Below are positions 6,634 to 36,756 of a stretch of 64,000 bases of DNA, piece after piece (position 1 is the stretch's first letter; every line of letters starts with the position of its first letter). Source of the stretch: SAR324 cluster bacterium. Its GTDB lineage: Bacteria; SAR324; NAC60-12. The position numbers and the translations under genes were made by a program. The notes beneath the pieces were generated by a model that saw only the letters and a list, made by a program, of their open reading frames with translations, had not been told where the DNA came from and made no database searches. Location: positions 9,914-73,913 of the forward strand of contig JADGAV010000002.1 of assembly GCA_015231825.1 (NCBI GenBank), written 5' to 3'.

Positions 6634-7281
6634 ATGAAAGCATTTTTTAGAAATTTTATTCCCTTGATATATTTGGGAATCTGCGGGTTGATATTCTTCG
6701 GGTCATTTGTCTCGTCTGCAGAGGCAACATCGACAATTGTTTTTTTGGGAGATTCTTTGACAGAAGGCTATGGATTGGATAAATCCGAAGCGTTTCCCGC
6801 TCTTTTTGAAAAGGAGTTGCAAGCAGAGGGATACAAAGACATCAAAGTAATCAATGCGGGCATCAGTGGGTCTACTTCTGCCAGTGCGATTTCTCGATTG
6901 AAATGGTATTTGCGAATCAAACCCTCCATTCTTGTAATCGCCCTGGGAGCCAATGACGGATTACGAGGATTGGATCCAGATGCTATGAAGAAGAATTTAG
7001 CGACAACCATTCAACTCGCCTTGGATCGCAAGATCACGGTTGTTCTGGCAGGGATGAAAATTCCACCGAATTATGGATTAAAGTACACTGAAGAGTTTGA
7101 AAATGTATATCCGGAACTCTCCGAAAAGTTCAATATTCCGCTCATTCCGTTTCTTTTGGATGGAGTTGCTGCAAACCCTGAATTGAATCTGCCGGATGGG
7201 ATCCATCCCAACCAAAAAGGTCACGAAATCATCGCCAGGCTTGTTTTAAAAGAGTTGCGCCCACTGCTGCCACAATCCTGA
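6634..7281 (+). CDS. tesA: SGNH/GDSL arylesterase (TesA-like acyl-CoA thioesterase I / lysophospholipase), secreted
   Basis: Signal peptide, then block I 'VFLGDSLTEGYG', block III 'GANDGLRG' and block V 'DGIHP' of SGNH hydrolases; 215 aa. Confidence 0.8.
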   Translation: MKAFFRNFIPLIYLGICGLIFFGSFVSSAEATSTIVFLGDSLTEGYGLDKSEAFPALFEKELQAEGYKDIKVINAGISGSTSASAISRLKWYLRIKPSILVIALGANDGLRGLDPDAMKKNLATTIQLALDRKITVVLAGMKIPPNYGLKYTEEFENVYPELSEKFNIPLIPFLLDGVAANPELNLPDGIHPNQKGHEIIARLVLKELRPLLPQS

Positions 7282-7321
7282 AGGATTCCCCATCAATTTT
7301 TCCCTATACTAAAAATATATT

Positions 7322-7987
7322 ATGATTTTACAGGTTCATGAGTTGGTTAAAACTTTTGCGACTTCAGGCATGCTGGATACCATCGAAGTCCTCAGCGGGC
7401 TCAATTTTGATATCGAACAAGGAGAAACGGTCTCCATTGTTGGTCAATCCGGAAGCGGAAAATCGACGCTGCTTTCTCTGATGGCGGGATTGGATCATCC
7501 GACATCCGGAACAATTAAAATAAAAGGTCAAAACTTGAGCGAGATGAGCGAGGAAGCGCTGTCAAAATTTCGCGCGCAGAATATCGGGATTGTTTTTCAA
7601 CAGTTCCACTTGATGTCGCATCTCACGGCCCTGGAAAATATTTCTCTTCCCCTTGAATTGAATCACGACTCTGGAGCCGTTCCCAAGGCGAAAGAAGCCT
7701 TGATTCAAGTCGGCTTGGAACATCGGCAAAACCACTTTCCCCATCAGCTGAGCGGAGGTGAGTGCCAGCGAGTTGCGATTGCCCGCGCCCTTGTGGTGCG
7801 ACCCGCATTGCTGCTGGCTGATGAACCTACTGGAAATTTGGACAATAAAACGGGTGAGCATATTGCCGATCTGTTTTTTGATTTGGTCAAATCGACAAAA
7901 ATGACCATGTTGTTTGTCACTCACAACGAGCACTTGGCAGATCGATGTTTGCGAAAGCATCTCATTAAAGAAGGGCGATTCGTATGA
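7322..7987 (+). CDS. ybbA: ABC transporter ATP-binding protein (YbbA/LolD-like)
   Basis: Walker A 'GQSGSGKST', signature 'LSGGECQRVAIARAL', Walker B 'LLLADEPTGNLD'. A tesA-like gene sits immediately upstream and a ybbP-like gene downstream. Confidence 0.85.
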   Translation: MILQVHELVKTFATSGMLDTIEVLSGLNFDIEQGETVSIVGQSGSGKSTLLSLMAGLDHPTSGTIKIKGQNLSEMSEEALSKFRAQNIGIVFQQFHLMSHLTALENISLPLELNHDSGAVPKAKEALIQVGLEHRQNHFPHQLSGGECQRVAIARALVVRPALLLADEPTGNLDNKTGEHIADLFFDLVKSTKMTMLFVTHNEHLADRCLRKHLIKEGRFV

Positions 7988-10560
7988 GATTGTGGATCAA
8001 GCTCGCCATCAAGGAAATTCGCAATAATTCGCGTTTCAGTTTATTTTTTATCGTCAATTTGACGTTGGGATTGATTGGGTTCATTGCATTGGATTCTTTC
8101 AAAACTTCAATACATCATCACTTGGAAAACAACTCAAAAGCAATCCTGACCGCCGATATCAGTGTGCGTTCCAATCAACCATTCACGTCTCAGGAAATAG
8201 AATTGTTCACCGAGATAATGGGGAAAGATAGCGAGAAGGCCGAACAAATTCATTTCATCTCCATGATTGCCGGAAAGAAGAATTCCAGGATGGTCCGCAT
8301 TATTGGTATTGATGGTCAATTTCCCCTTTACGGAAACATCGTACTAAAAAACGGAGGAGTCGTACAAAGCCAAGAAATACGTGAGCCCTTACTTACTCGC
8401 CACTCTGTCTGGGCTGCGAAGGATTTGATGCTCGCCTTTGAATTTGATGAAGGCGATTCGGTGAAAATAGGACAATCCTCATTTGAGATTGTAGACACCA
8501 TTCTGGAAGATCCGACCAGCACGGCTTCTTTTCTTGCCGGAATTCCCACTGTTTATATGGGGATTGAACAAATCCAAAGTACAGGTTTGGTTCAACTGGG
8601 AAGCCGGATTCGCTATGAACGTTTTTATAAGCTCCCCGTTGGAACCGATTTAGAACTGCTCGAGGAGAAACTCCGCCAAAAACTGGAAGATCTTTATCCC
8701 GGATCACCAAAAATTAGGGTGGAATCTCATAAAGATGCAAGTCAGCAGTTGGGAAGAACCTTGGGATACCTGAATGACTATTTGGGCTTGGTTGCCTTGA
8801 TTGCTCTATTTTTGGCGGGAGTTGGAGCAGCCTATTTATTCCGGAGTTTCCTCACGGATCGATTCAAAGAAATGGCTATTCTAATTAGCCTCGGGGCCAC
8901 TCGAAGAGATGCTTATCTGATGACTTTGGTGCAAATCACCATTCTCGGATTTGTCAGCGCCGTTTTGGCCAGTCTGCTGGCGTATTTGTTTCTTCCCCTT
9001 TTGCCGACCATGTTGGTAAATTTTCTTCCAAAAGGATTTGTCAGTTCGATGGGGTGGAGTAGTTTGGTCCTTGCTTTTTTTATGGGAACTCTGGGCAGCG
9101 TCATCTGCTGCTTACCGATCCTGGCGCGGATCTACAGCCTCAATCCAATTGCTTTATTCCATGAAAATGTGATCCCCACTCGGGTAGACCATCTTCCCTG
9201 GCTTAAAACTATTTTGAGTTATCTTCCCATTTTGGTGATTTATTGGATACTGGCTGTCTGGCAGGCTCATTCATGGATCATCGGCAGTCTGTTTGTCGGC
9301 TTGTTTTTAGGATCGCTTCTCATTTTGGGTTTGGTCGCCTGGGGGCTATTGTCTGCATGCGGCAAAGTGTCCAATCAAAGAGGGGTGACCTCCAAAATTG
9401 CATTAAGAAACCTCAATCGTAACAAAGTTGGTGCAATTTCCTGCTTTCTGGCAATTGGATTGGGATCGCTGCTGATCAACCTTATTCCCCAGATTCAGGG
9501 AGGCCTTCAGGAAGAGATCAGTCAACCGCTCAACGTCAAAGTCCCCAGTTTTTTTCTTTTTGATATCCAACCCGATCAAGTGGATTCGTTGAAAGCCTAT
9601 CTTCAGGAAGAAGAATATCAACTGTCTTATCTTTCTCCGATGATTCGTGCGCGTCTGGAGGAAGTCAACAACAAAACCTTTGACTCCAACCGGGAAGAAG
9701 CGGCTATGACCCGGGAACAGGAAAGGGAACGCCGTTTCAGAAACCGTGGATTCAATTTAACCTATCGAGGTGAATTGAAGGACTCCGAATCATATGTTGA
9801 AGGAAAACCACTTTCCCCCCTTTACAACGCAGACGCCGAAGGACTACCAGAAATTTCATTGGAAGAACGCTTTGCAAATCGCCTGGGACTTCAGATTGGT
9901 GATGAATTGACCTTTGATGTACAGAGCGTGCCGATCACTGGCAAAGTGGTTAATTTCAGGAAGGTCAAATGGAACAGTTTTCAACCGAATTTTTTCGTTC
10001 TTTTTCAACCGGGAGTTTTGGAAGAAGCCCCGAAAACCTTTCTTGCTGGAATTTCTAATGTGGAGGCCGAACGAAAACTTTTGCTGCAAAATGGAATTGT
10101 CCAGCGCTTTCCAAACATTTCGGTCATTGATGTTTCCCGGATTGTCTCACGCATACTGGACATCACGGACCAAATCAGTTGGGCCATTCGAGTGATGGCC
10201 TATCTCTCAATAGTAGCGGGATTGGTGGTATTGTTTTCTATTGCTCGGTACGAAGTTCAGCATCGATTTTGGGAAATCAATCTGCTGAAAGTTTTAGGGG
10301 CACGTTTCGAGGATGTACGCTCAATTGTTCAAATTGAATTTGGTATTCTTGGATTTTTTGCAGCTGTCTTTGGGGTGCTTTTGAGCAATCTGATGTCTTT
10401 TGCAATTGCCTATATCATCTTTGAAAGCATCTGGAGTTTTTCCTGGCTGATGACCTTTTTCAGCATAATCGGTATCAGCCTCCTCAGTGTCGCTACTGCT
10501 CTTTTGGCGACCCACCATCTACTTCGAAAAAAACCATTGGAATTACTGAAAGCCACTTGA
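7984..10560 (+). CDS. ybbP: FtsX-like ABC permease with duplicated MacB-PCD/FtsX modules (YbbP-like)
   Basis: 858 aa; two 4-TM FtsX blocks, each preceded by a large periplasmic domain; ATGA overlap with the upstream ATPase. Confidence 0.8.
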   Translation: MRLWIKLAIKEIRNNSRFSLFFIVNLTLGLIGFIALDSFKTSIHHHLENNSKAILTADISVRSNQPFTSQEIELFTEIMGKDSEKAEQIHFISMIAGKKNSRMVRIIGIDGQFPLYGNIVLKNGGVVQSQEIREPLLTRHSVWAAKDLMLAFEFDEGDSVKIGQSSFEIVDTILEDPTSTASFLAGIPTVYMGIEQIQSTGLVQLGSRIRYERFYKLPVGTDLELLEEKLRQKLEDLYPGSPKIRVESHKDASQQLGRTLGYLNDYLGLVALIALFLAGVGAAYLFRSFLTDRFKEMAILISLGATRRDAYLMTLVQITILGFVSAVLASLLAYLFLPLLPTMLVNFLPKGFVSSMGWSSLVLAFFMGTLGSVICCLPILARIYSLNPIALFHENVIPTRVDHLPWLKTILSYLPILVIYWILAVWQAHSWIIGSLFVGLFLGSLLILGLVAWGLLSACGKVSNQRGVTSKIALRNLNRNKVGAISCFLAIGLGSLLINLIPQIQGGLQEEISQPLNVKVPSFFLFDIQPDQVDSLKAYLQEEEYQLSYLSPMIRARLEEVNNKTFDSNREEAAMTREQERERRFRNRGFNLTYRGELKDSESYVEGKPLSPLYNADAEGLPEISLEERFANRLGLQIGDELTFDVQSVPITGKVVNFRKVKWNSFQPNFFVLFQPGVLEEAPKTFLAGISNVEAERKLLLQNGIVQRFPNISVIDVSRIVSRILDITDQISWAIRVMAYLSIVAGLVVLFSIARYEVQHRFWEINLLKVLGARFEDVRSIVQIEFGILGFFAAVFGVLLSNLMSFAIAYIIFESIWSFSWLMTFFSIIGISLLSVATALLATHHLLRKKPLELLKAT

Positions 10561-11071: not shown

Positions 11072-13270
11072 ATGAAAAAACAAATAAATATTCCAAAACG
11101 TAAAAAAATGCCTGATCCGATTCGTCGTCAACGTCCTGCTGTTTCGGAGGACGACGCGGTTCGGGAGGAAACGCCTTCTGCACTTGAAGAACCCGAAGAA
11201 AATCGAAGGATTGCAGAAGATGAAGCAGTGGATCTCGAAGAGTATTCTGAAAATCTGGACATGCATAGAAACGATGTTTTTTCTTCTCTGGTACCCACAC
11301 AGGAAGATGATGAATCGAGTTTGCGCTTCAACTTTGTGCGTCCCTTGGTGGACTATTTTAAACATTTGGAACAGACGCTTGTCGACGAATTAAGCGACCC
11401 GGATTCTTTTGACACGGAAGAGATAGAAGGTGAATTTCCTGATGTTGTTGCTCAAGATGAGCTTCAATTTGATGAGTTGAGTATCAACGCCGCGGTGACG
11501 CTTTGCAGGGAGCTTGAGACCTATCTTCGCAGCCGTCTTTCCGATGAGCAGTTCAACGACATTCAATCTGTCTACCTCTTTTATGAGAGCTCTGAACAAT
11601 TGCTGGATATGATCAAACTTCTTTTTATCGGAGATTTGGTTGCCAAGGAAAAAGTTGTCCGGATTTATGGTTCCAAAGTTTTTGGGACATTTAAAGTGGT
11701 TCAAATGATTTTGGATACAGCAGCAATATTTGAAGGAATGGATGAAACTGAAGAACGAAACTCCCGGAAAATGCTGCAAAAATATGCAGAAGATCCCTTG
11801 AGGCAGTTTAAGAAGTTCTTTTTTGCTTCTGAGCAAAAGCAGATTCCCAATACTGGAAGCGGATTGGCGGATGGAGTGCGAAACACCTTGGCCAGCAGAG
11901 AACCTCTGTTTGTAAAAAGTGATGACTATAACAAGATTTTGGTCAATTTCAGGAAATTCATTCTTTCTTTATATGCGGATCCCTTTGTGCTGGAGTATGT
12001 GAAATGGAAAGACAGATATATGCGGCACTGGTTGTTTCATGAACTGCATCAATTGGATATACAGAATATGAAATCCAGTGAAATAAAAATTCCGCAATAT
12101 AGTAACATCAAGTGTAAAATCTATCAGCAGTTGGATCAAAATTTTTCCAGTTTGGAGCGATCAAACCGGATTTTTGATAAATCGTTGGAACTCAGGAAAA
12201 CCCATTTTCTCGCATTTCGTAACGGAGAGTCCTTCATGCAGGGTGCTGAGGAGGCCAGTCGAATGGCCTTGGAGAAAGCAAGGGAACACGAGAAGGCGTT
12301 GCTGGATTCTTTGAATTCTGCACAAATCAATGCAATTGCGGAAAAAATTCACATAGAAATTGCTGAAATTCGACGTAACAAAAAGTTAGCAGGCAAAGCT
12401 CCTCGAAATGTAAATTTGCGTTCTGTGGATATGAGTTCAGAGAAGAAAGCAGAAAAAAAATACATGGCGGCCACTGCCAAAATCCAGATCACCCAATCCA
12501 AACAACGAAGTCTTCCTCCTCCACCTAAATTCCTGCAGGCTATGGGGAAAATCGCTAGAAATTTAGTCATGCGTGGGAAAAGCACAGCTTCCCCTGTTAC
12601 AGAACAAAAAACGCCGGAAACACATTCCCAACCCGACATTCTTCCTCGCGCGGAAGGGAATTTGGAAGGGCCCCTGGAAAAGGTGGAAGTCGATTGGACC
12701 GGATATGGGAAGGAATTCAAGACGACAGTTTACGAACGCACCTTTCCTAATTTACAGGAAAGATTTTTTGAACATGGCCAATTCCAATTGAGGTTAAATC
12801 AGCACTTTATTGAAGCCAGTGATGCAATTCTGGAATATTATAAAGACCTCGGCTATCTTCAATCCACTCGACATAAAATTGCGATTTCTTCCGAAAGCGG
12901 AGATGGCGTCAAAGCCTTTGTGGACGAAGCTATTTACCTCAGAATCAGTGCGGAGATGTTTCTGGCACTGGGGCGAGCTCCATTCAGTAAGAATGCGGAG
13001 CCTACGCACTATCTGCAAATCTATCAAAACAAACCCATAAGAGTGAAAAAAGGGGCGTTGAAAAACATTGATTTTTCAAGAATGGCTGAAGGTCTAAGAT
13101 ATGAATTGGAAGATACTGAAAATGCTGTGGTACTTCGCCCTTTATTGTTTAAAAGTCTAATAAAAATCATTGACAGCCTTCCTGATCAAATCCGTAACCA
13201 GCACCAAGCTTTTCTCAAAGGAATGGTTCGATTTTTAGAAAGCGATCATGCTGCTCAGTCAACCAGTTGA
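11072..13270 (+). CDS. Hypothetical 732-aa cytoplasmic protein, acidic N-terminus, no recognisable domain
   Basis: Long uninterrupted ORF with a plausible start; no TM segment and no Walker, HEXXH or other motif seen; first ~120 aa very D/E-rich; the C-terminal two thirds look alpha-helical. Confidence 0.5.
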   Translation: MKKQINIPKRKKMPDPIRRQRPAVSEDDAVREETPSALEEPEENRRIAEDEAVDLEEYSENLDMHRNDVFSSLVPTQEDDESSLRFNFVRPLVDYFKHLEQTLVDELSDPDSFDTEEIEGEFPDVVAQDELQFDELSINAAVTLCRELETYLRSRLSDEQFNDIQSVYLFYESSEQLLDMIKLLFIGDLVAKEKVVRIYGSKVFGTFKVVQMILDTAAIFEGMDETEERNSRKMLQKYAEDPLRQFKKFFFASEQKQIPNTGSGLADGVRNTLASREPLFVKSDDYNKILVNFRKFILSLYADPFVLEYVKWKDRYMRHWLFHELHQLDIQNMKSSEIKIPQYSNIKCKIYQQLDQNFSSLERSNRIFDKSLELRKTHFLAFRNGESFMQGAEEASRMALEKAREHEKALLDSLNSAQINAIAEKIHIEIAEIRRNKKLAGKAPRNVNLRSVDMSSEKKAEKKYMAATAKIQITQSKQRSLPPPPKFLQAMGKIARNLVMRGKSTASPVTEQKTPETHSQPDILPRAEGNLEGPLEKVEVDWTGYGKEFKTTVYERTFPNLQERFFEHGQFQLRLNQHFIEASDAILEYYKDLGYLQSTRHKIAISSESGDGVKAFVDEAIYLRISAEMFLALGRAPFSKNAEPTHYLQIYQNKPIRVKKGALKNIDFSRMAEGLRYELEDTENAVVLRPLLFKSLIKIIDSLPDQIRNQHQAFLKGMVRFLESDHAAQSTS

Positions 13271-13304
13271 CTCCCTTGTTAACTTTTAAAATCCCCTTTT
13301 TTGT

Positions 13305-14348
13305 ATGTTGAAACCACGCACCATCGTTATCTGTTTGACTGTCATAATTTTGACAGCCTGGAGTGCAGCGATTGTTGCTGTTGAAAACCTGGCAGTCAAA
13401 TCAGCAATTGATAAAACTGTCCTCACAACAGGAGATTTTTTAGTTTTTCAAGTTGAAGTCTCTCATCCAGGTCATATTCAATTGAAGCCTATTTCCTTGA
13501 ATCAGTATTTTGAAGAGGGAATGGATGTGGAGCCTATTGTACCCAGTGAGTCTCCAATGGACTCTTCTGAAGAAGGAAATTGGCTGTCCCGATGGTGGCC
13601 TTTTGAAAAGGAAGAAAAGGTCTCTCTCCAAAATACATTCTGGTCCTGGCGACTTTGGCCAACTCGGGAAGGTTCCTGGACCATCCCAGAAATCTCAATC
13701 CAGAGTGTCCAAACTGATAAAGAAGGAAACTCTGCTCTCTTTCACGGCAGTACTCAGACCTTGACTTTTACTGTGAACTCAATTTTCAAAGACCAGGAGA
13801 ATCCGGTCCTGAAAATAAATAAAAATATGCCTGAAGTTCCTCTGACTATCCCCTGGCTTTGGTTGACCACGGCAGGAATCATTGTGATTTTCCTCGGCCT
13901 TGCATGGGTGTTTTACAAACGCAGAAAACGTCCACTTGAAGTTGAAGCTGAAGAGCTGCCGCACGAGCGGGCACTCCGTCGATTGAAGGAGTTGGAACAG
14001 TTTTTGTTGACTAATCCTCAGGAGGTTCATCAATACTACTATTTGCTTTCAGAAATATTTCGCGAGTATTTGGAAAAGCGATTTGGATTCTCCGCAAGCA
14101 GCATGACTACACAAGAATTCTTGCCCATGCTGGAAGCAGAAACATCCTATACTGCTGAGGAGCGAAACCGGATTGTTTTACTGACCCAAAAGTCTGATTT
14201 GATAAAATATGCAGAGGTTTCGCCCATGCGCAAAGAAATGGATGACGCATATCGGGAGGTGATCGAACTGGTTGAAAGAACGGCTTATATTGGCGAATCT
14301 GATCCGGATGAAGAAACAAAACATCGAAAATTCCGGGAGGCCTCATGA
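13305..14348 (+). CDS. BatD-like periplasmic domain fused to a single TM and a DUF4381-like cytoplasmic tail
   Basis: Signal peptide 'IVICLTVIILTAWSAAIVAV', then a ~170-aa beta-rich periplasmic region, the TM 'WLWLTTAGIIVIFLGLAWVFY' followed by a KRRKRP stop-transfer, and a helical tail ('ALRRLKELEQFL') resembling DUF4381. ATGA coupling to the VWA gene. Confidence 0.45.
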   Translation: MLKPRTIVICLTVIILTAWSAAIVAVENLAVKSAIDKTVLTTGDFLVFQVEVSHPGHIQLKPISLNQYFEEGMDVEPIVPSESPMDSSEEGNWLSRWWPFEKEEKVSLQNTFWSWRLWPTREGSWTIPEISIQSVQTDKEGNSALFHGSTQTLTFTVNSIFKDQENPVLKINKNMPEVPLTIPWLWLTTAGIIVIFLGLAWVFYKRRKRPLEVEAEELPHERALRRLKELEQFLLTNPQEVHQYYYLLSEIFREYLEKRFGFSASSMTTQEFLPMLEAETSYTAEERNRIVLLTQKSDLIKYAEVSPMRKEMDDAYREVIELVERTAYIGESDPDEETKHRKFREAS

Positions 14349-15337
14349 GGTTCGAAAGTCCCTGGCTGCTATTACTTTTGCTGATGGTCCCTCTTTGGTG
14401 GTGGTTCCTGACTAAAAATCGTAAATCTCAGTTTGTCCATTTTTCAGGGGTGGGCACTCTGCAATCATTTGCACGTAATTCCTGGTGGAGTCATCCCCTT
14501 TTCCTACCGGCTATCCGATGCCTGGTTTTGATTCTGTTGATTCTCACTATCGCCCGCCCTCAGACTGGGCGATCTTTTTCAAAGATTTTAACAGAAGGTG
14601 TGGACATCGTCTTGGCGTTGGATGTGTCAGGAAGCATGCGTGCCCTTGATTTGAAGCTCAATAATGAAAGAGTGACACGCCTTGAAGTATTGAAAAAAGT
14701 GGTTGGAGAATTTATAGAAAATCGTCTCAATGATCGTGTTGGTATTGTTGTTTTTGGAGAAGAAGCATTCACTCAAGCGCCGTTGACGCATGATCACAAA
14801 TTACTGTTAGGATTTTTGGAGCAGATTTTTATTGGATGGGGAGGGGATGCAACGGCGATTGGAATGGGAATTGGCCACAGTGCCAAGCGTTTAAAAGATT
14901 TAAAGGCGCCCACAAAACTGATCATTTTAGCAACCGATGGCCAAAATAACGCGGGCCACATCACACCTGCCGAGGCAGCCAGGGCTGCCAAAGATCTTGG
15001 TATAAAAATATATACGATCGGGGTTGGATCCCGCGGAAATGCCCCCATCGAAGTCGACAGTGTTTTCGGGAAAAAAATTGTAAATGTCCCGGTTTCGATT
15101 GATGAGGAAACGCTGACCAAAATTGCGGAAACCACCGGAGGACGCTACTTTCGTGCAACGGATACCGAGTCTCTTCAGAAAATTTATCAAACCATTGACG
15201 AATTAGAAAAAACCGAAGTGGAAGTGAAGGAATATTATGAATATGAAGAGCAATATGCAGTTTTCCTGATCCCAGCCCTTCTGCTTTTTCTTTTGGAATT
15301 TATTTTGGCTCGTACTCGTCTGAGAAGATTACCCTAA
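14345..15337 (+). CDS. BatA-type von Willebrand factor A (VWA) domain membrane protein
   Basis: Two N-terminal TMs, MIDAS motif 'ALDVSGSM', 'LATDGQNN' and 'TIGVG', plus a C-terminal TM; topology identical to BatA of Bat aerotolerance operons. Confidence 0.8.
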   Translation: MRFESPWLLLLLLMVPLWWWFLTKNRKSQFVHFSGVGTLQSFARNSWWSHPLFLPAIRCLVLILLILTIARPQTGRSFSKILTEGVDIVLALDVSGSMRALDLKLNNERVTRLEVLKKVVGEFIENRLNDRVGIVVFGEEAFTQAPLTHDHKLLLGFLEQIFIGWGGDATAIGMGIGHSAKRLKDLKAPTKLIILATDGQNNAGHITPAEAARAAKDLGIKIYTIGVGSRGNAPIEVDSVFGKKIVNVPVSIDEETLTKIAETTGGRYFRATDTESLQKIYQTIDELEKTEVEVKEYYEYEEQYAVFLIPALLLFLLEFILARTRLRRLP

Positions 15338-15421: not shown

Positions 15422-15910
15422 TTGAATAATTTTGAAAAAAGAATCATTACAGTATGTCTGGTGCTTACCTTTTCGTGGATTTACTTTTCGGGATCTTATC
15501 TGATGGCTGCGCCGCCGGGTTTGATCATATTGGAAAGAGCGGAGAGCGATTTAGACTTTTTTCAAGAAGAACTCACTCGTGTCACTCGATCGTTGGGACC
15601 TTCTCCAGAAAGTCAGGGGATTCAATCCATGATCGTGATGATTCATAATCTGAAACGTGAATTGTGGCTCGCGAAAAAACTGCTTCTGGTGAAAGATGCG
15701 GTGAAGTCGGAGCAAGACAAACAAGCGGTCAAGTTTATTGTCGGACAAGACTTTGATGAACTGATTGCTGAAGCACAAAAAATTGTCACACAGCTCAAAT
15801 CGAGTTTACGACGAACCCGCCATGGGAATTTGTTTCGATATAATGACGAATTGGCTCAATTTCTTGAAGTTTACATCGAAGGTCTGCGCTTTGTGCAATC
15901 CAATCTCTGA
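15422..15910 (+). CDS. Hypothetical small exported protein
   Basis: 162 aa; N-terminal hydrophobic signal or anchor, then a helical charged domain; no identifiable family. Confidence 0.4.
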   Translation: MNNFEKRIITVCLVLTFSWIYFSGSYLMAAPPGLIILERAESDLDFFQEELTRVTRSLGPSPESQGIQSMIVMIHNLKRELWLAKKLLLVKDAVKSEQDKQAVKFIVGQDFDELIAEAQKIVTQLKSSLRRTRHGNLFRYNDELAQFLEVYIEGLRFVQSNL

Positions 15911-15986
15911 ACATCAGGAAATTTCTCCACTTATTGTTCTCCATATTGATCGTTTACATTTCTAATGCTTTCGACTTCAAAGCTAC

Positions 15987-16024
15987 TGTTAAGAAATTGC
16001 ATGCATGTTAAGGAATTGCATGCA
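15987..16024. repeat. Tandem 19-bp direct repeat (TGTTAAGRAATTGCATGCA x2), each with a TGCATGCA palindrome; putative operator
   Basis: Copies at 15987-16005 and 16006-16024 differ at one position; they lie ~70 bp upstream of the vapB-like pseudogene. Confidence 0.5.
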
Positions 16025-16094
16025 ATATAATGAAAATTGCCTTATGCCTCGAGTTGCATAATTCATTTATTAAATTTTTATAGAAGTGGATGCA

Positions 16095-16286
16095 ATGAAA
16101 TCTTTACAAGTGAGAGAGGTCCCGGAACACATTTAAAAGAAATTGCTCGAAGAATCCAAAAATAATCACCGCAGCTTGTCACAGCAGGTTATAGCCGCGT
16201 TAGCCCGGGGGTTGGACACTCCGCTTTCCCCGAAAGCAAAAAGAAGAGAGCTTTTGGAAAAAATAGGAATGAGGGGATTCAATTAG
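16095..16286 (+). pseudogene. VapB/FitA-like antitoxin remnant with in-frame TAA at codon 14
   Basis: ATG at 16095 encodes 'MKSLQVREVPEHI*KKLLEESKNNHRSLSQQVIAALARGL...', which matches the FitA/VagC 'VRNLPDEVHRALRVRAAQHGRSMEAEVREIL' pattern. The stop codon at 16134-16136 is in frame. Confidence 0.5.
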
Positions 16287-16338
16287 AGATTAAGCCTGCA
16301 AGAAAGCCGGTCGAATTAATTCGAGGAGACAGGGATCG

Positions 16339-16722
16339 ATGATTTTAATGCTGGATACAAGCGTTGCTTTTGAACTTGTTCTCAATCGCGAAAATTCCAA
16401 TAAGTTCAGTTACTTTTTGTCAGAAGCAGATTGAGTTGTTGCTCCGGGTATCTTCATTTAGGAAGTCACCAATGTTTTCTGGAAATACTTCCGGTTTGGT
16501 GATATTCCATTGGAACAATACGAAGAACTTATCGATTCTTCAATCGGAATTGTTGATGAGTTCGTAAACAGCCAGGAACTCTGTCGGTAAACTTTTCCCA
16601 TGTCCTGCATGATGCAGTATCCGACTTGTGACATACTTTTCATTACACTCGCCAAAAGATATAGTGGAACGCTGTTAACTCACGATAAGAAATTGCTCAA
16701 GATTGAAAAAAACAATCAGTAA
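16339..16722 (+). pseudogene. VapC-like PIN-domain toxin remnant with three in-frame stops (TGA, TAG, TAA) and no frameshift
   Basis: One frame of 128 codons reads 'MILMLDTSV...SEAD*VVAPGIFI*EVTNVFWKY...ELCR*TFPMS...YPTCDILFITLAK...LLTHDKKL'. The PIN signatures (DTSV, xYEV, D..L..A, LLT.D) are kept, and the TAG sits at the conserved Tyr of 'YEV'. Confidence 0.55.
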
Positions 16723-17025
16723 AAACAGTCTAATATGGTAAGCCAGCTTGGTAATTGGAAACATCGCCAATTTTTCGAAAGCATTTCGTTTTTGCATCTT
16801 TAGTACGCGGCACAGAGCTGGGAAATATAGCAATCGCGTTACGATGGGTCTTGGTCCAAAAATCTTTCCGAACTCATTTAGTAAATGAAGCTCGTAGTCA
16901 AAAAAGAGATATGTTAGTTTAGTGAAAATGTTCTTCTTGATATCCTTATTTTTTGCGGTACGGCTTAATGGAGATTCAAGATTTGAACGAATGAGAAAAA
17001 AGAAATTGAAAAATCAAGGAGAAGC

Positions 17026-18429
17026 ATGAATCATTCTATCAGAGAACGACTACAGCAAACTTTGGCAAAAGGAGGACATTGGACAGAATTCCGTTATCAC
17101 AATCGGCGCAGCAGGATTTTTGGAGTACGCAAGGGAGAAGTCGATGAAATGAGTTCCAAACACTATGAAGGCGTCGGGATCCGAGTTTTGATGAATGGCT
17201 CATGGGGATTTGCCTCGACATCCGATTTATCCATCGAAGGTTTGGAAAAAGCCTTGGCGGATGCAGAAAATCTGGCTGAGGCACTCAGTTTCCGTAAACA
17301 GCATAAGTCTCAGATTGCAGAAAGTTCAAAGTTGGCACGAGGAGATTTTTTTATTGAAGGGTATGAAGAACTGTTTGCCATGCCTATTGAGGAAAAATTT
17401 GACTTTGTCAGAAAAGCGGAAGAGCAATTGAGCCAGGAAGCGGAGAAAATTGAGGCAGCTGCCTGCCGTTACACGGAAATGTTTGAGGACAAAATTATTT
17501 TAACCTCCGATGGTGCCGACTGCCACATCAAATTGGCTCGCCCAGAGCTTCGTTTGATTGCCTTTGGAGCCGACGGCAGTCTCCATTCCAAAGGGTTCGA
17601 GAGTGTCGGAGGTACGGGCAATTGGGACTGTATGTTTCGTAACAAACCTGTTGAAAAGATGATTGAAGGTGCTGCTTCCGAAGCAGTCGAAATGCTCAAT
17701 GCTCCCGAAGGTGATGGTGGAAAAAAGACAGTGATTCTTTCTCCTGCAATGGTTGGCTTGCTCAGCCACGAAGCCATCGGTCATACGGTGGAAGCCGATT
17801 TTGTTAAGTCCGGTTCTGTGGCGGGAGAAAAGATGGACCAGGAAGTTGCTTCCTCTCTTGTTACTCTCTGTGACAGTGGATATAGCGAATACACGGAAGG
17901 AGCGGGGGGAGAGCTTCCGGTAGATGATGAAGGGATTCTGTGCCAAAAAACCCCTATTATCAAAGATGGGAAACTGGTGAGTTTTCTTCACAATCGGGAA
18001 ACAGCTGCAGAGTTTGGAGTTGAACCGACGGGTAACGCCAGAGCATGGGTATTTAGTGATGAGCCATTGATCCGAATGCGCAACACCTATATTGAACCCG
18101 GTAATGATCAATTAAAAAATATGATATCCGAAATTGAAGATGGTTATTTTATTGACGGTCCTGGTGGCGGGCAAGCGGATGCCACCGGCGAATTCATGTT
18201 CGGCGCCAGCAAAGTCCGCCGCATACAAAATGGAAAATTGAGCGGGCATGTTAAGGAACTGACCGTTTCCGGAAAAGCTTTTGAAGTTTTACAATCAGTG
18301 GATGCGGTAAGCCAGGATTTTAGATGGGATCTTGGTGCTGGCTATTGCGGAAAGGGACAGCCAGCCAAAGTCGATGCGGGAGGACCTTATCTAAGATGCC
18401 AGGTTCTGGTGGGAGGTGCCCAAACATGA
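17026..18429 (+). CDS. tldD: TldD metalloprotease
   Basis: 467 aa; 'HEAIGHTVEADF' HExxxH zinc motif plus the Gly-rich C-terminus of the TldD/PmbA fold. Confidence 0.85.
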   Translation: MNHSIRERLQQTLAKGGHWTEFRYHNRRSRIFGVRKGEVDEMSSKHYEGVGIRVLMNGSWGFASTSDLSIEGLEKALADAENLAEALSFRKQHKSQIAESSKLARGDFFIEGYEELFAMPIEEKFDFVRKAEEQLSQEAEKIEAAACRYTEMFEDKIILTSDGADCHIKLARPELRLIAFGADGSLHSKGFESVGGTGNWDCMFRNKPVEKMIEGAASEAVEMLNAPEGDGGKKTVILSPAMVGLLSHEAIGHTVEADFVKSGSVAGEKMDQEVASSLVTLCDSGYSEYTEGAGGELPVDDEGILCQKTPIIKDGKLVSFLHNRETAAEFGVEPTGNARAWVFSDEPLIRMRNTYIEPGNDQLKNMISEIEDGYFIDGPGGGQADATGEFMFGASKVRRIQNGKLSGHVKELTVSGKAFEVLQSVDAVSQDFRWDLGAGYCGKGQPAKVDAGGPYLRCQVLVGGAQT

Positions 18430-19799
18430 TGACTCCAAAAGAACAAACGGCGATGTTGTTGAAAAACAGCGAAATTATGATCGACGAGATTAAGGGAGAA
18501 GGAACCCAAAGTGAGGTCTGTGCCCAGCACTCAGTAGATTTGAGTGTTGTTTACGAAGGAAACGATTTTTCGGTCAGCAAAAGCAACACCACGTCTTCCT
18601 ATGGAATTCGTGCGATTGTCGATGGAAAGCTAGGGTTTATGACCTCCAATTCAAGCAGTGATCAGATGCTGCGGGAAATTGCTTTAGAAACGAGGAAACT
18701 CGCGATGCTTTCTGTTTCGAGCGAACATCATCAGATTGCAACTGCTATGGAAAAGCACGGATATTCCGAGAATTATGACCCTTCAACAGAAATGCTGCTG
18801 CCTTCTGATTTATACAATATGCTGCAACTGATGGTTGATGAGGTTCACAAAGAGAAGAACATCTCTCTTGATCGTGCCGAAATTTCCTGCTCCCGGCAAT
18901 ATTTCACCCTGACGAATTCCAATGGATTTTCTCAGCAAGCGGCTGCTTCTGATTTTTCCTGGTTTGCCATGGGGATGGGAAAGACGAAAAACGAAGTGAC
19001 CAGCTTTGACTATGATGGAGGAACGGTCAGAGACCGTTCCGCTCTCGAGAACGAGATCATTCAGACTATGGAACGGTTTCGACAGTATGTAGGAAGCTCA
19101 TTGGGGCCTCGCCAGGCAAAGGATTATAAAGGTGCGATCCTTCTCCATCCAGCAGCAGTGATGAGTATTCTTGGGCAAACAATCAGTTTCAACGCAAACG
19201 GAAAAAATCATTTGGATGGCATTAGTGCCTGGAACGAGCAAATGGGTCAGCAAGTGGCTTCTGAGACACTGCTGGTTGCCGAAGATCCTTTGGATGAAAA
19301 TCGACCGGATGGCTGGAGTCCATTTGATCGGGAAGGAGTGACAACGTCTAGGCACCAAATTATCGATGCGGGACACTTGAATTTTGCGGCACATAATTGC
19401 TTCAGCGCGCATCAAGCCGGTATTCAGCCTACAGGAAATGCTGCAGGAGGAGCAACGGGATTACCGCAAATCGGATTTTCCAATTTGAAGATTTCCGGAG
19501 TCGAGGGAAAAGCGCTTTCTGAAGAGTTACTCTATCAGAAGTTGGGGACAGGTCTGGTGCTCAAACGTTTCAGTGGAAGTTGCGATCCGATTTCTGGACA
19601 ATTTTCAGGAGTGGCAAAAAATTCATGGTGGGTGGAAAATGGTAAACGAAGCCATGCGGTGCATGAAACTATGGTTTCTGGAAACGCATTTGATGTCCTG
19701 AAACAAATATTGGCAATTGGTTCTCAGCTTCATGTTAATCTGGGGGGCAGCCAGGCTCCCTACATACTGATTGATGGTGTCAGCGTGACCGCGGGATGA
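18426..19799 (+). CDS. pmbA: PmbA/TldE partner protein
   Basis: TldD/PmbA-family fold without HExxxH. The start is ATG 18426 (ATGA overlap with the tldD stop); the track's 18324 start is an out-of-frame extension. Confidence 0.8.
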   Translation: MMTPKEQTAMLLKNSEIMIDEIKGEGTQSEVCAQHSVDLSVVYEGNDFSVSKSNTTSSYGIRAIVDGKLGFMTSNSSSDQMLREIALETRKLAMLSVSSEHHQIATAMEKHGYSENYDPSTEMLLPSDLYNMLQLMVDEVHKEKNISLDRAEISCSRQYFTLTNSNGFSQQAAASDFSWFAMGMGKTKNEVTSFDYDGGTVRDRSALENEIIQTMERFRQYVGSSLGPRQAKDYKGAILLHPAAVMSILGQTISFNANGKNHLDGISAWNEQMGQQVASETLLVAEDPLDENRPDGWSPFDREGVTTSRHQIIDAGHLNFAAHNCFSAHQAGIQPTGNAAGGATGLPQIGFSNLKISGVEGKALSEELLYQKLGTGLVLKRFSGSCDPISGQFSGVAKNSWWVENGKRSHAVHETMVSGNAFDVLKQILAIGSQLHVNLGGSQAPYILIDGVSVTAG

Positions 19800-30734: not shown

Positions 30735-33266
30735 CTAGTTATTTGCAGGGAACTGAGAATGCTTTAAACGCAGGGCATTCAGTGTGACAAAAATAGAACT
30801 GAAAGCCATTGCAGAGGCTGCAAAAAGAGGATTGACCCATCCCATCATGGCCAGAGGAATTGTCAAAGCATTATATGCGAGTGAAATTCCAAGGTTTTGC
30901 CGAATCACCTGAGTCGTTTTTTGGGATATTTGAAGCAGTTCGACCGCACCGTTTAATTGTGATTGCAATAAAACGACATCCGCGGCTTCCAAAGAGATAT
31001 CTGCGGCATTTCCGAGAGCCACACCGAGATCTGCCTGCTGAAGAGATGGAGCATCGTTGATTCCATCTCCAAGCATCATCACCTTTTTTCCTGACAGCTG
31101 CAGTTTTTGAAGATATTCCAGCTTCTGATCCGGCATCAAATTTCCATGTGCCTGGTCAATTCCAAGCTGTTTTGCAATAAAGTCTACAATTTCTTGCCGG
31201 TCTCCGGATAAAATATGAATATGTTTCCCTGCTTTTTTTAAGGATTGGATACTTTGTTCTGCTCCATTGCGAAGCTGATCTTTTAGAATCAGTTGACCGC
31301 AAAGAATTCTGTCGATGGCAACAAATACTTCAACGTTCGGAAGTGTTTTGGAAACCCGAACTGAATTTTCTGTTTTTTCGGGGACGAAGACTTGATTGGT
31401 GTTTAGAAATTCACGATTGCCAACTAATATTAAACGATTGTCGACTTGCCCGGAAATGCCCTTTCCAGGGTGCTGTTCAACCGAGCCGACTTTGAAAGCG
31501 GATGCCGTCAGAGATTTTTTTTCTCCAAAAAGCCTGAGTGCTTTAGCAATCGGGTGATTGACTTCGGCCTCCAATGAAAGAGCTAGTCTGAACCAGTCTT
31601 CAAACCGTGAAATTGATAGATCTTGAACAGAAATCACCTCCATTTCCCCGGAGGTGAGTGTCCCGGTCTTGTCAAAAACTATCTCACTCATTTCGGATGC
31701 CTGTTCCAGGATATCTCCACCTTTGATCAGGATTCCTCTTTTTGAAGCAATTCCGGTGCCTGCCAGGATTGCGGTGGGAGTGGCAAGACTCAACGCACAG
31801 GGACATGCAATGATGATGACCGAAACGGCAATGTACCAGGCCGGTTGCGAATGTGGTGTGCCTAAAAATGTCCAGTAGGCCCAGGTGCCGAAGGTGAGCA
31901 GCAAAACAACCCAGACAAACCATGAGGCAACACGGTCGGCGATTCGCTGGATGCGCGTTTTTTTCTGAGTCGCCTGTTCGATCATTTGAACCACCCGGTT
32001 CAGCATGGTTTCCCGACCGACTGCAGTTGCTTTCATCACAAAGCTTCCGTTTTGACTGATACTTCCTCCAATGACAGAGGATTTTTCATTGACAAAACGC
32101 CACATGGATTCTCCAGTCAAAGCAGATTCATCGATCTCAGCCTTGCCGGTCATGACAATGCCATCCACTGGTATGGTATCTCCCTGACGCACCAGCAGCA
32201 GATCATTGGTTTGAATGTTTTCATGTGGAATCAGCGTTTCCTTGTTGTTGGCAGAAATCAGGGTAGCAAATTGGGGAGAAAGCTGAGTCAAACGCTCTGT
32301 AATGGAGGAAACCTGATTTTTGGTCAAATGCTCCAATGTTCGGCTGATCAGAAGAAAAAAGGTGATCATCGTGCAGGAGTCAAAGTAGGTACTTTTTGCA
32401 TTGCTCATCAGTGCGACTACGGATGCTGAAAAAGTGACTCCGATTCCGAGGGAAATCAAAAAATCCATATTCGGTTGGCGAATCTTCAAAGCACGCCAGG
32501 CCCCTTGCCAGAAAGGAACGGCAGAGTAAAAAATAACTGGCAGCGTCAGCACCCCGGAAATAAATTCAAACAAAAACTTGTACTCGTCTTCAATGCCGCT
32601 GAAGTATCCTGCATAGAGGGAAACACTGAGCATCATCACGTTCCCCGCACAAAATGCTGCAACTGCCAATCTTATGACCATCTGGCGGAAAGCATCCCGA
32701 CTTTTTTGCTCTTGAATTGAGGCATCATAAGGCAATGCGGAATAACCAATCTGTTGAAATCTCTGCAGTATCTCTGAAAAATGAGCTTCATCCGGATTCC
32801 AGACGACATGGGCCCGGTGATTTCCAAAATTGAGAGAGGCCTCGACGACTCCTTTTTGTTTAAGAAGAAATTGCTCTATCAGCCAAATACAGGCGGCACA
32901 ATGAATTCCATCCACCATTAAATCTGCTGAATTCAAACCATCTTTATTTTTTTGAATATACAGCTGAGCCACGTTGTCTTGATCATATCGACTGAAATCG
33001 TCATTGGTTTTAGCAGATAACAATTGAGAGATAGTTTCTGAAGGAGTCTTTTCGCGTTTCTGGTAATAGGCGTCCAACCCGCTTCCATTGATGAATTGCC
33101 AAACAGAGGCACATCCGTAACAGCAGAACAGTTGTTCAGGTGCGGAATCTATCGCAATTCTTTCTTTAGCCAAAGGGAGCAGGCAATGGCCACAAGCCAT
33201 TGATTCTGAAGTTGAAGCTGCCTTTTTTAAAGAGCTCATCAAAAGGGAGGAAGGCAAAGTCGCCAT
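30735..33266 (-). CDS. ccoI: Copper-translocating P1B-type ATPase, cbb3-oxidase-associated
   Basis: N-terminal CxxC region, HMA-like 'DGIHCAACIW', 'CPC' in TM6, 'DKTGTLT' phosphorylation site, 'GDGINDAP'; terminal gene of the cco operon. Confidence 0.85.
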   Translation of the reverse strand: MATLPSSLLMSSLKKAASTSESMACGHCLLPLAKERIAIDSAPEQLFCCYGCASVWQFINGSGLDAYYQKREKTPSETISQLLSAKTNDDFSRYDQDNVAQLYIQKNKDGLNSADLMVDGIHCAACIWLIEQFLLKQKGVVEASLNFGNHRAHVVWNPDEAHFSEILQRFQQIGYSALPYDASIQEQKSRDAFRQMVIRLAVAAFCAGNVMMLSVSLYAGYFSGIEDEYKFLFEFISGVLTLPVIFYSAVPFWQGAWRALKIRQPNMDFLISLGIGVTFSASVVALMSNAKSTYFDSCTMITFFLLISRTLEHLTKNQVSSITERLTQLSPQFATLISANNKETLIPHENIQTNDLLLVRQGDTIPVDGIVMTGKAEIDESALTGESMWRFVNEKSSVIGGSISQNGSFVMKATAVGRETMLNRVVQMIEQATQKKTRIQRIADRVASWFVWVVLLLTFGTWAYWTFLGTPHSQPAWYIAVSVIIIACPCALSLATPTAILAGTGIASKRGILIKGGDILEQASEMSEIVFDKTGTLTSGEMEVISVQDLSISRFEDWFRLALSLEAEVNHPIAKALRLFGEKKSLTASAFKVGSVEQHPGKGISGQVDNRLILVGNREFLNTNQVFVPEKTENSVRVSKTLPNVEVFVAIDRILCGQLILKDQLRNGAEQSIQSLKKAGKHIHILSGDRQEIVDFIAKQLGIDQAHGNLMPDQKLEYLQKLQLSGKKVMMLGDGINDAPSLQQADLGVALGNAADISLEAADVVLLQSQLNGAVELLQISQKTTQVIRQNLGISLAYNALTIPLAMMGWVNPLFAASAMAFSSIFVTLNALRLKHSQFPANN

Positions 33267-33955
33267 AAATCATTTGCAATGAAGTGATTCCAAAACAGTC
33301 TGATTCCCATCAAGATTACAATGATCCCGGCGAATTGAACTGATCGAAAGCGAAAATGAGGAGAAATCTTGGAAATGATGGTTCCTGTAAGAAGAATTGC
33401 AGGAGAAGTAATTAGACAAAAAGTGAGCATGATCAGCATGCCCCTGACGAGCGAATTGGATGCAAATGCCTGCATTTCTGCAGCCCACATCAGTCCGCAG
33501 GGGAGAATTCCGGAAATCATTCCCAGCGGCATAACACGCCAGGGAGAATTACTCAACTGCCAGCGTTGAAGGGATGGGATCAGCCAGCTCATACTTTTTG
33601 ATATCCATAAAGCAATATTTTCAGGCCATTTTTGTTGAAACAAAGAGGAAAGCCCGCCTGCAATTAAAATTACGCCTGCCAGCAAACCACCTAAATCACG
33701 CCAGTTCGAATCAGGAGTCATCGCAGTATAAAAAGCCATTCCCAAAGTCCCCAGCAGGGCGCCTATCCATCCGTAAGCCAGTAATCGTCCTGCCATGTAA
33801 GCACTGTGAAATTTCCACAGTGAACGAGTATTCGATTGTTCGATAGAAAGTGAGTAGGTCGAGCAAATCGCGCCGCACATTCCAGCACAATGCAGACTTC
33901 CGGTTAGACCAAGCAAAACTAAGAATGTCAAATCAATGGCAAAAATACTTTCCAT
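33239..33955 (-). CDS. DsbD_2/UreH-like transmembrane protein (TauE-like fold) with HCxxMCG motif
   Basis: 238 aa, ~6 TMs; 'GSLHCAGMCGAI' in TM1 and a second Cys pair 'ILPCGLMW'. Overlaps the ccoI start by 28 nt, which suggests translational coupling. Confidence 0.5.
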   Translation of the reverse strand: MESIFAIDLTFLVLLGLTGSLHCAGMCGAICSTYSLSIEQSNTRSLWKFHSAYMAGRLLAYGWIGALLGTLGMAFYTAMTPDSNWRDLGGLLAGVILIAGGLSSLFQQKWPENIALWISKSMSWLIPSLQRWQLSNSPWRVMPLGMISGILPCGLMWAAEMQAFASNSLVRGMLIMLTFCLITSPAILLTGTIISKISPHFRFRSVQFAGIIVILMGIRLFWNHFIANDLWRLCLPPF

Positions 33956-34089
33956 GGTTTTGGAAACGGGGGAATCCCCTTAGAAATCCAAGGCCCCGGG
34001 AGTATAGGGAAAGAGATGAATTTTGGCGGAAATTCACCTCTTTCCTTTCCGGGCGGCACGCCTTTCGGAATTTCTAAGGGGAGGGGGTT

Positions 34090-35951: not shown

Positions 35952-35960
35952 TTTCAGTTC

Positions 35961-36536: not shown

Positions 36537-36545
36537 TGCTCCTCC

Positions 36546-36737: not shown

Positions 36738-36756
36738 CTTTCCCTTTATTTTGAAA

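What the first reader, a model, noticed from the sequence alone, without database searches (positions are those of the whole stretch)
11072..13270. Large acidic ORFan (732 aa) with no detectable domain
There is no TM segment and no nucleotide-binding or catalytic motif that I can recognise. The first ~120 residues are extremely D/E-rich (for example 'EDDAVREETPSALEEPEENRRIAEDEAVDLEEYSE'), and a long helical body follows. Proteins of this size with no family signature are rare in a region that is otherwise well annotated.
Basis: seen in the sequence. Interest (0 to 1): 0.5.

Follow-up and report, generated by a model that had tools for sequence, protein, structure and literature searches.

The report
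New STAS-linked protein family member
The 732-residue ORF is a real, conserved cytoplasmic protein from a small, undescribed family found only in SAR324-type bacteria; its relatives are fused to or sit beside STAS signalling domains, this copy is linked to two Bat-type membrane proteins, and its function is still unproven.

Summary
The ORF (11072-13270, +, 732 aa) is real and under purifying selection. It has no Pfam, NCBIfam, PADLOC or PDB-sequence match. A confident AlphaFold model (pLDDT 83) has no significant structural neighbour in the PDB or BFVD.

It is not a singleton. An exhaustive HMMER search of 1.84 billion representatives found 30 clusters. All named ones come from SAR324-type genomes, which carry roughly 4-7 paralogs each.

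Only the N-terminal tail is acidic and disordered (model residues 1-79; residues 1-130 have pI 4.3). The whole protein has pI 5.85. It consists of a helical domain (80-500), a basic linker and an alpha+beta domain (521-731).

There are two context signals:
- Four family clusters carry an N-terminal STAS domain with the phospho-serine position conserved. Other clades have a STAS gene overlapping or abutting the start codon.
- The window's own clade has no STAS. In three genomes with unrelated flanks it keeps the triad: this gene, a BatD/DUF4381 membrane protein, and BatA (VWA).

My best reading (confidence about 0.4) is a non-enzymatic cytoplasmic adaptor or target of STAS-type partner switching, here attached to a Bat-like envelope module, probably through the well-conserved cytoplasmic DUF4381 domain. 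This is inferred, not shown. Interest is moderate.

The parts
11072..13270 (+). Gene for the 732-aa cytoplasmic protein (HQM13_02160, 'hypothetical protein', SAR324 cluster bacterium MAG)
   Evidence: ORF. 100% match to an NCBI protein. Homologs in frame in other genomes. pN 0.28-0.33 against pS 0.82-0.86. AF2 mean pLDDT 83.
11072..11308 (+). Residues 1-79: short basic N-terminus (1-22) followed by an acidic, disordered, poorly conserved tail
   Evidence: pLDDT 31-38. Column conservation 0.17-0.22. D/E 28.5% and pI 4.3 over residues 1-130. Acidic tails recur in the family members that lack STAS.
11309..12571 (+). Residues 80-500: helical core domain (two short strands at 124-134, otherwise helices) with the family's most conserved motifs (G187, K192-E193, R197, K202, Y309, W312, W320, D329, P341, K347, Y351, E407). 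Its last part (430-500) is basic.
12572..12631 (+). Residues 501-520: disordered, poorly conserved linker
   Evidence: pLDDT 34-36. Conservation 0.25.
12632..13267 (+). Residues 521-732: C-terminal alpha+beta domain (about six strands plus helices) ending in the conserved DSLPD motif (701-705; S702, P704 and D705 are at least 85% conserved)
   Evidence: DSSP and pLDDT, mostly 85-97. Conservation. The motif is kept even in the most distant ~570-aa subfamily.
13305..14348 (+). Downstream gene 1: signal/anchor, periplasmic BatD-like domain, one TM (185-203), and a cytoplasmic DUF4381 domain. It starts 34 bp after the 732-aa gene.
   Evidence: Pfam DUF4381 E 5.9e-6 and BatD E 0.0023. LB_053 family E 4e-7, sub-threshold. 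Hydropathy. The cytoplasmic part is 48% invariant against 23% for the periplasmic part across 3 genomes. Same gene order in L001 and L020.
14345..15337 (+). Downstream gene 2: BatA-type VWA protein (2 N-terminal TMs, VWA with intact DxSxS MIDAS, C-terminal TM). It overlaps gene 1 by 4 bp.
   Evidence: Pfam VWA 2.8e-23 and BatA 9e-9. NCBIfam VWA_BatA_Lepto 2.7e-56, below its cut-off. TMs and K/R distribution. MIDAS conserved, and 64% identity to the L020 ortholog.

Best explanation
The gene encodes a soluble cytoplasmic, probably non-enzymatic adaptor or target protein of a previously undescribed, SAR324-restricted family whose ancestral partner is a STAS (SpoIIAA-like) domain.

Shown:
- It is a real, selected, folded protein made of a disordered acidic tail, a helical domain, a basic linker and an alpha+beta domain.
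- It has no known domain or fold.
- The family has several paralogs per genome.
- In several clades the core is fused to, or translationally coupled with, a STAS domain that keeps the phospho-serine position.
- The window's clade has lost STAS and is kept in a three-gene cluster with a BatD/DUF4381 membrane protein and a BatA VWA membrane protein.

Inferred:
- In relatives, the ~650-aa core is the protein that the STAS domain binds and releases. It sits where RsbW/SpoIIAB sits in classical partner-switching operons, but it is not a GHKL kinase.
- In this copy the core serves as the cytoplasmic subunit of a Bat-like envelope complex. It probably docks on the strongly conserved cytoplasmic DUF4381 domain of the middle gene.
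- The acidic tail replaces the STAS input module. It could act as a flexible regulatory or autoinhibitory arm against the conserved basic K192-K202 helix, but this last point is pure speculation.
For: Real gene.

Fold: model at pLDDT 83.

Small, lineage-restricted family: 30 clusters among 1.84e9 representatives. All named members are SAR324 or 'Deltaproteobacteria bacterium TL4'. Only one further metagenome locus was found.

STAS fusions: L011/P0008, P0014, P0016 and P0020.

STAS gene next to the family gene: overlapping by 4 bp in L002/L007, separated by 1 bp in L013, upstream in L008, and divergent (co-operonic with a cytoplasmic VWA_2 protein) in L004 and L016.

Phospho-serine: the column equivalent to SpoIIAA Ser58 is invariant in all nine aligned STAS sequences.

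Phosphatases: SpoIIE/PP2C genes lie nearby in L002, L004 and L025.

Phylogeny: in the NJ tree the window clade is sister to the STAS-adjacent clade and close to the STAS-fused clade, with STAS-fused P0020 branching deep. This fits an ancestral STAS link.

Triad: conserved in three genomes with unrelated flanks, with gaps of 34/38/109 bp and a 4-bp overlap.

DUF4381: the cytoplasmic domain is twice as conserved as the periplasmic part.

No catalytic or nucleotide motif was found.
Against: - No experiment or co-folding supports any physical interaction.
- The window protein has no STAS domain, and no STAS gene lies anywhere in the 64-kb window.
- SAR324 genomes are rich in signalling genes, so some of the adjacency could be background.
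- Two subfamilies (downstream of proS; stand-alone ~570-aa proteins) show no STAS or VWA neighbour.
- Conserved charged residues (K192, E193, R197, K202, D329, E407, D705) could equally form an active site.
- AFDB fold libraries were unavailable, so a known fold among predicted structures is not excluded.
- Co-transcription of the triad is inferred from spacing only.
Confidence: 0.4

Rival explanations
1. It is an enzyme of a new fold, for example one acting on a STAS-bound or envelope-related substrate. The conserved K192/E193/R197/K202/D329/E407/D705 residues would form an active site rather than a binding surface.
For: Several invariant or near-invariant charged residues sit in well-folded regions. 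The size (~650-aa core) is large for a mere adaptor. The paralog expansion could reflect substrate diversification.
Confidence: 0.15
2. It is a structural or scaffolding (cytoskeleton-like) protein built from helical bundles. It would organise membrane or polar complexes independently of STAS signalling, and the acidic tail and basic linker would mediate electrostatic assembly.
Against: The matches are at noise level for helical proteins. The repeated STAS fusions and translational coupling argue for a signalling link. No repeats or long coiled coils are evident in the model.
Confidence: 0.2
3. The acidic N-terminal tail is a ligand for the MIDAS site of the adjacent BatA VWA domain, with a carboxylate completing the metal coordination, so the protein would be a VWA client.
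For: The BatA MIDAS (DxSxS) is intact. MIDAS sites bind acidic side chains (established knowledge of VWA/integrin I domains). A second clade of the family lies next to a cytoplasmic VWA_2 protein and also carries acidic linkers.
Against: BatA here has the same 3-TM architecture as Borrelia BB0173, whose VWA domain was mapped to the periplasm (PMC5700661). The positive-inside count agrees with this: 4 K/R in the TM1-TM2 loop and 4 in the C-tail. The 732-aa protein has no signal peptide or TM, so the two should lie on opposite sides of the membrane.
Confidence: 0.07
4. It is not a functional gene, but a chance ORF or pseudogene.
For: None beyond the lack of annotation and a weak Shine-Dalgarno-like sequence upstream.
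Against: The full-length ORF is conserved in frame in several genomes. pN is much lower than pS. The co-evolution-driven AF2 model is confident.
Confidence: 0.01

Closest known systems
Partner-switching modules built on STAS proteins (SpoIIAA/SpoIIAB/SpoIIE, RsbV/RsbW/RsbU, HsbR/HsbA)
   Same: Relatives of the window protein are fused to, or lie immediately downstream of and overlapping, a STAS gene whose phospho-serine position is conserved. PP2C (SpoIIE) phosphatase genes are nearby. The family gene occupies the operon position that the STAS-binding switch protein normally holds.
   Different: The core has no GHKL/HATPase fold or motifs, so it cannot be an RsbW/SpoIIAB-type kinase. It is about five times larger. 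No sigma factor is associated with it. The window copy has no STAS at all.
Bat (Bacteroides aerotolerance) / MoxR-VWA gene clusters (MoxR, DUF58, BatA, BatB, BatD)
   Same: The two genes directly downstream are a BatD/DUF4381 protein and a BatA VWA protein with the canonical 3-TM architecture and MIDAS. The cluster is conserved across genomes. The function of Bat clusters is still elusive, and a periplasmic signalling complex has been proposed (PMC3557215).
   Different: No MoxR AAA+ ATPase or DUF58 was seen in the annotated flanks of the three triad loci or among the window ORFs scanned. About 15 window ORFs of 150 aa or more were not scanned. The 732-aa protein sits where those cytoplasmic components usually are, but it is mostly helical in its first domain and lacks Walker motifs, so it is not a divergent MoxR. 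BatB and BatC are also absent.
vWA-MoxR associated proteins (VMAPs) and other large uncharacterised partners of VWA proteins
   Same: Large, multi-domain, poorly characterised proteins genomically tied to VWA proteins. Two clades of this family neighbour two different VWA proteins.
   Different: No Pfam model, VMAP models included, matches at E <= 1. There is no MoxR partner and no effector or conflict-system context, and PADLOC is negative.

Membership tests
Any described protein family (Pfam-A, NCBIfam, PADLOC) | Score above the curated threshold for a family model | tested here: not met
   The only Pfam match is DUF4048, E 0.019, 15.3 bits against a cut-off of 25. NCBIfam gave 0 families. 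PADLOC gave 0.
Any solved structure family (PDB) | Significant sequence-profile or fold match | tested here: not met
STAS-domain proteins (SpoIIAA/RsbV-like) | STAS domain with a phosphorylatable Ser in the DS(x)G loop | tested here: not met
   The window protein has no STAS hit, and no STAS is encoded in the window. The feature is met only in paralogs or adjacent genes elsewhere.
RsbW/SpoIIAB-type switch kinases (GHKL) | HATPase_c fold with N-box and G1/G2 boxes | tested here: not met
   No HATPase_c hit. No N-box or DxGxG motif. No fold match to the many GHKL structures in the PDB.
RsbW/SpoIIAB-type switch kinases (GHKL) | Gene immediately downstream of, and often overlapping, the STAS gene | tested here: inconclusive
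   Met for paralogs (L002 4-bp overlap, L013 1-bp gap) but not for the window copy.
MoxR AAA+ ATPase (usual cytoplasmic component of Bat clusters) | Walker A/B motifs and an alpha-beta-alpha P-loop core | tested here: not met
   No Walker A/B. No AAA Pfam hit. Residues 135-500 of the model contain no beta-strand.
DUF58/VWA proteins | VWA fold with a MIDAS DxSxS motif | tested here: not met
   No DxSxS. No VWA or DUF58 hit.
The new family itself (SAR324 STAS-linked ~650-aa core) | Full-length alignment of the core with the conserved motifs G187, K192-E193, R197, K202, Y309, W312, W320, P341, K347, Y351 and DSLPD | tested here: met
   Profile hits from E 1e-265 down to 1e-17 over profile positions ~20-713. 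Conserved columns.
MamJ-like acidic magnetosome proteins (considered because the source MAGs come from a study of magnetotactic bacteria) | Location in a magnetosome gene cluster, and acidic repeats forming the bulk of the protein | tested here: not met
   No mam-type neighbours in any of the loci examined. Acidity is limited to a non-repetitive tail. Sequence homology to MamJ was not tested directly.

The most novel reading that the evidence does not exclude
The ~650-aa core is a new protein fold that acts as a previously unknown output or receiver module of STAS partner switching. It has expanded to several paralogs per genome in one SAR324 lineage, with interchangeable N-terminal input modules: a STAS domain, an Hpt-like helical bundle, or an acidic disordered tail. 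In the window's clade it gives a Bat-type periplasmic VWA complex its missing cytoplasmic signalling arm in place of MoxR/DUF58. That would be a first mechanistic handle on the long-unexplained Bat clusters.
Probability: 0.25. Interest if true: 0.6.

Novelty: new variant of a known kind. Interest (0 to 1): 0.4.

Why it matters
If the inference holds, this would be an undescribed family, with a fold unmatched in the PDB, that plugs into two widespread but incompletely understood bacterial systems.

The first is STAS/PP2C partner switching. Its known outputs are mostly anti-sigma kinases and a few enzymes, so a new class of STAS target would broaden the known outputs of partner switching.

The second is the Bat-type VWA envelope cluster, whose function remains elusive more than 20 years after its discovery. 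A cytoplasmic partner replacing MoxR/DUF58 would give a testable link between cytoplasmic signalling and the periplasmic Bat complex.

The practical reach is limited. The family is confined to a rare, uncultivated lineage (SAR324-type MAGs, including genomes from a magnetotactic-bacteria survey), and nothing about its function is yet shown experimentally.

Tried and rejected
1. Sequence searches for a known family (Pfam, NCBIfam, PADLOC, PDB profiles with 5 and 27 sequences) gave nothing.
2. A second word-indexed homolog search with the 27-sequence profile returned only the same five proteins.
3. The first AF2 run with 5 sequences was too poor to use (pLDDT 53). The 27-sequence run was good.
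5. Divergent MoxR+DUF58 fusion: rejected. There are no Walker motifs, no MIDAS, and no beta-strands in residues 135-500.
6. Acidic tail as ligand of the BatA MIDAS: disfavoured, because BatA-type VWA domains face the periplasm and the K/R distribution here agrees.
7. Defence-system or phage origin: rejected (PADLOC none, BFVD none).
8. Magnetosome (MamJ-like) protein: no mam neighbours in any locus.
9. A hidden STAS gene or a second paralog in the window: tblastn negative.
10. An Hpt identity for the N-terminal domain of the long paralogs: only sub-threshold (E 0.06 in 2 of 6), and the PDB profile hits were designed or talin helix bundles. Left as inconclusive.
11. The promoter and terminator scans gave fewer sites than shuffled controls and are not used as evidence.
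12. The metagenome scan with the broad alignment failed for lack of a conserved stretch. With the 5-sequence alignment it found one extra, truncated locus.

Full report
**Observation.**
- The protein is 84.8 kDa. No segment reaches transmembrane hydrophobicity: the maximum Kyte-Doolittle 19-mer score is 1.39.
- Regex scans find none of the standard nucleotide-binding, metal-binding or catalytic motifs.
- Acidity is local. Residues 1-130 have 28.5% D/E and pI 4.3, although the first 22 residues are K/R-rich. Residues 430-540 are basic (pI 10.3). The whole protein has pI 5.85.
- GC content matches the surroundings.

**Is it a gene?** Yes.
- The product is identical to NCBI 'hypothetical protein HQM13_02160' of a SAR324 cluster bacterium MAG.
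- Full-length in-frame homologs exist in other genomes at 33-54% identity.
- Between the three orthologs the proportion of nonsynonymous differences is 0.28-0.33, while synonymous sites are saturated at 0.82-0.86.
- With a 27-sequence alignment, AlphaFold2 gives a confident model: mean pLDDT 83.2, with 480 residues at 90 or above.

**Anatomy (with conservation).**
- Residues 1-79 are disordered and poorly conserved. This is the acidic tail.
- Residues 80-500 form a helical domain, with two short strands at 124-134. It holds the best-conserved motifs: G187, K192-E193, R197, K202, Y309, W312, W320, D329, P341, K347, Y351 and E407. It ends in basic helices.
- Residues 501-520 are a disordered linker.
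- Residues 521-731 form an alpha+beta domain with about six strands, ending in a conserved DSLPD motif.

**Known families.**
- Pfam gives only a sub-threshold DUF4048 match. NCBIfam and PADLOC give nothing. Profile searches of PDB sequences give nothing.
- For the confident model, Foldseek against the PDB has a best E of 0.034 with TM <= 0.21.
- BFVD gives nothing.
- AFDB libraries were not available, so 'new fold' holds only relative to solved and viral structures.

**Family size and spread.**
- An exhaustive HMMER search of 1.84 billion representatives (15 billion proteins) found only 30 clusters.
- A scan of one genome per GTDB species found 11 loci in four genomes, all SAR324-type.
- All named cluster members are SAR324 MAGs (HQM11-14) or 'Deltaproteobacteria bacterium TL4'.
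- JGI metagenomes added a single truncated locus.
- nPCR_bin10-type names tie at least the HQM14 genome to the survey of magnetotactic bacteria by Lin et al. 2020 (PMC7602337).
- Genomes carry several paralogs. Up to about seven were counted for nPCRbin10. So this is a taxonomically restricted, expanded family rather than an ORFan.

**Context of the window copy.**
- 34 bp downstream lies a 347-aa protein with a signal/anchor, a BatD-like periplasmic domain, one TM and a cytoplasmic DUF4381 domain.
- Overlapping that gene by 4 bp is a BatA-type VWA protein with two N-terminal TMs, an intact DxSxS MIDAS and a C-terminal TM.
- The same three-gene order occurs in nPCRbin10 (L001) and PL25a_bin.125 (L020).
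- The outer flanks differ in each genome: an FtsX permease, an aminotransferase, or a coproporphyrinogen oxidase upstream. This argues for a selected unit.
- The cytoplasmic DUF4381 part of the middle protein is 48% invariant across the three genomes. Its periplasmic part is 23% invariant.
- A BatA homolog with the same architecture, Borrelia BB0173, was shown to expose its VWA domain to the periplasm (PMC5700661). The K/R distribution here agrees.
- Bat clusters normally include a MoxR ATPase (PMC5700661; PMC3557215). None was seen in the annotated flanks of the triad loci or among the window ORFs I scanned. About 15 window ORFs of 150 aa or more were not scanned.

**Context of relatives.**
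- Four clusters (L011/P0008, P0014, P0016, P0020) carry an N-terminal STAS domain fused to the core.
- In other clades a STAS gene overlaps the family gene's start by 4 bp (L002/L007), abuts it by 1 bp (L013) or lies just upstream (L008).
- In L004 and L016, two species, a STAS gene that is co-operonic with a TM-less VWA_2 protein is transcribed divergently from the family gene. L004 holds two tandem family paralogs; L016 shows one before its contig ends.
- All nine aligned STAS sequences keep the serine that aligns with the SpoIIAA phospho-site Ser58.
- PP2C/SpoIIE phosphatase genes lie nearby in several loci.
- A neighbour-joining tree of the core places the window clade as sister to the STAS-adjacent clade and next to the STAS-fused clade. 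STAS-fused P0020 branches deep.
- Members without STAS usually carry an acidic N-terminal tail or linker instead.
- Two subfamilies show neither STAS nor VWA neighbours. One lies downstream of proS and one is a stand-alone ~570-aa form.

**Interpretation.**
- The fusions and the translational coupling are the strongest functional clue. The core is most simply a protein that a STAS domain binds. It occupies the operon slot of RsbW/SpoIIAB, but it lacks any GHKL feature.
- For the window copy, which has lost STAS and has no STAS gene within 64 kb, the conserved triad suggests it is the cytoplasmic subunit of a Bat-like envelope module.
- The conserved cytoplasmic DUF4381 domain is the most plausible docking site.
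- The attractive idea that the acidic tail feeds the BatA MIDAS is disfavoured by topology.
- All interaction claims are inference. I put the adaptor/target model at about 0.4, a scaffold role unrelated to STAS at about 0.2, a new-fold enzyme at about 0.15, and a non-gene at about 0.01.

**Novelty and verdict.** The protein belongs to an undescribed, rare family whose fold is unmatched in the PDB. That family appears to plug into known kinds of system (partner switching, Bat clusters) in a new way. The finding is moderately interesting (0.4): it gives concrete, testable interaction hypotheses, but there is no demonstrated function and the phylogenetic reach is narrow.

Noticed in passing
window 30735-38889 (-): A cbb3-type oxidase cluster in which CcoN and CcoO are fused in one 710-aa ORF (COX1 + FixO, 36757-38889). 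It is followed by FixP, FixG, FixH, a DsbD_2 protein and a FixI-like P-type ATPase.
   Followed up: no
window 15910-17026, especially 16143-16722 (+): A 1.1-kb stretch without a long ORF. Its small ORFs read like a decayed vapB/vapC pair: a 47-aa RHH-like peptide, and a 40-aa peptide 'DILFITLAKRYSGTLLTHDKKL' resembling a PIN-domain C-terminus. This is judged by eye only.
   Followed up: no
window 15422-15910 (+): A 162-aa ORF (TTG start) with a moderately hydrophobic N-terminal segment and no family hit, just after BatA. It is not present after the triad in L020, so it is probably not part of the conserved unit.
   Followed up: partly
window 6634-10560 (+): A TesA-like SGNH esterase, a LolD/YbbA-like ABC ATPase and an 858-aa FtsX-type permease in a row, resembling the E. 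coli tesA/ybbA/ybbP gene set.
   Followed up: no
window 17026-19799 (+): A TldD/PmbA metalloprotease pair. The listed ORFs overlap by 106 bp, so the second gene probably starts at a later codon.
   Followed up: no
L004 9968-15181; L013 606-3095; L015 7167-9992; L016 7356-9851: Long paralogs of the family carry an extra ~135-aa N-terminal helical domain with only sub-threshold Hpt similarity (E 0.06, 2 of 6). It is followed by an acidic F/D-rich linker. P0009 has three tandem 'GGSFDSF(T/A)DDDGENDDVFGGFGADDTEDD' repeats. L004 also holds two family paralogs in tandem next to a Che-like cluster and an RR-PP2C gene.
   Followed up: partly
L002 9651-14002: A stand-alone FliG gene (12430-13443) sits between the family paralog P0003 and a second STAS gene. 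This hints at a STAS-regulated motility link.
   Followed up: no
window 13305-14348 and orthologs in L001, L020: In the BatD/DUF4381 protein the cytoplasmic DUF4381 domain is much better conserved (48% invariant) than the periplasmic BatD-like domain (23%). This suggests that the constrained interaction is on the cytoplasmic side.
   Followed up: yes
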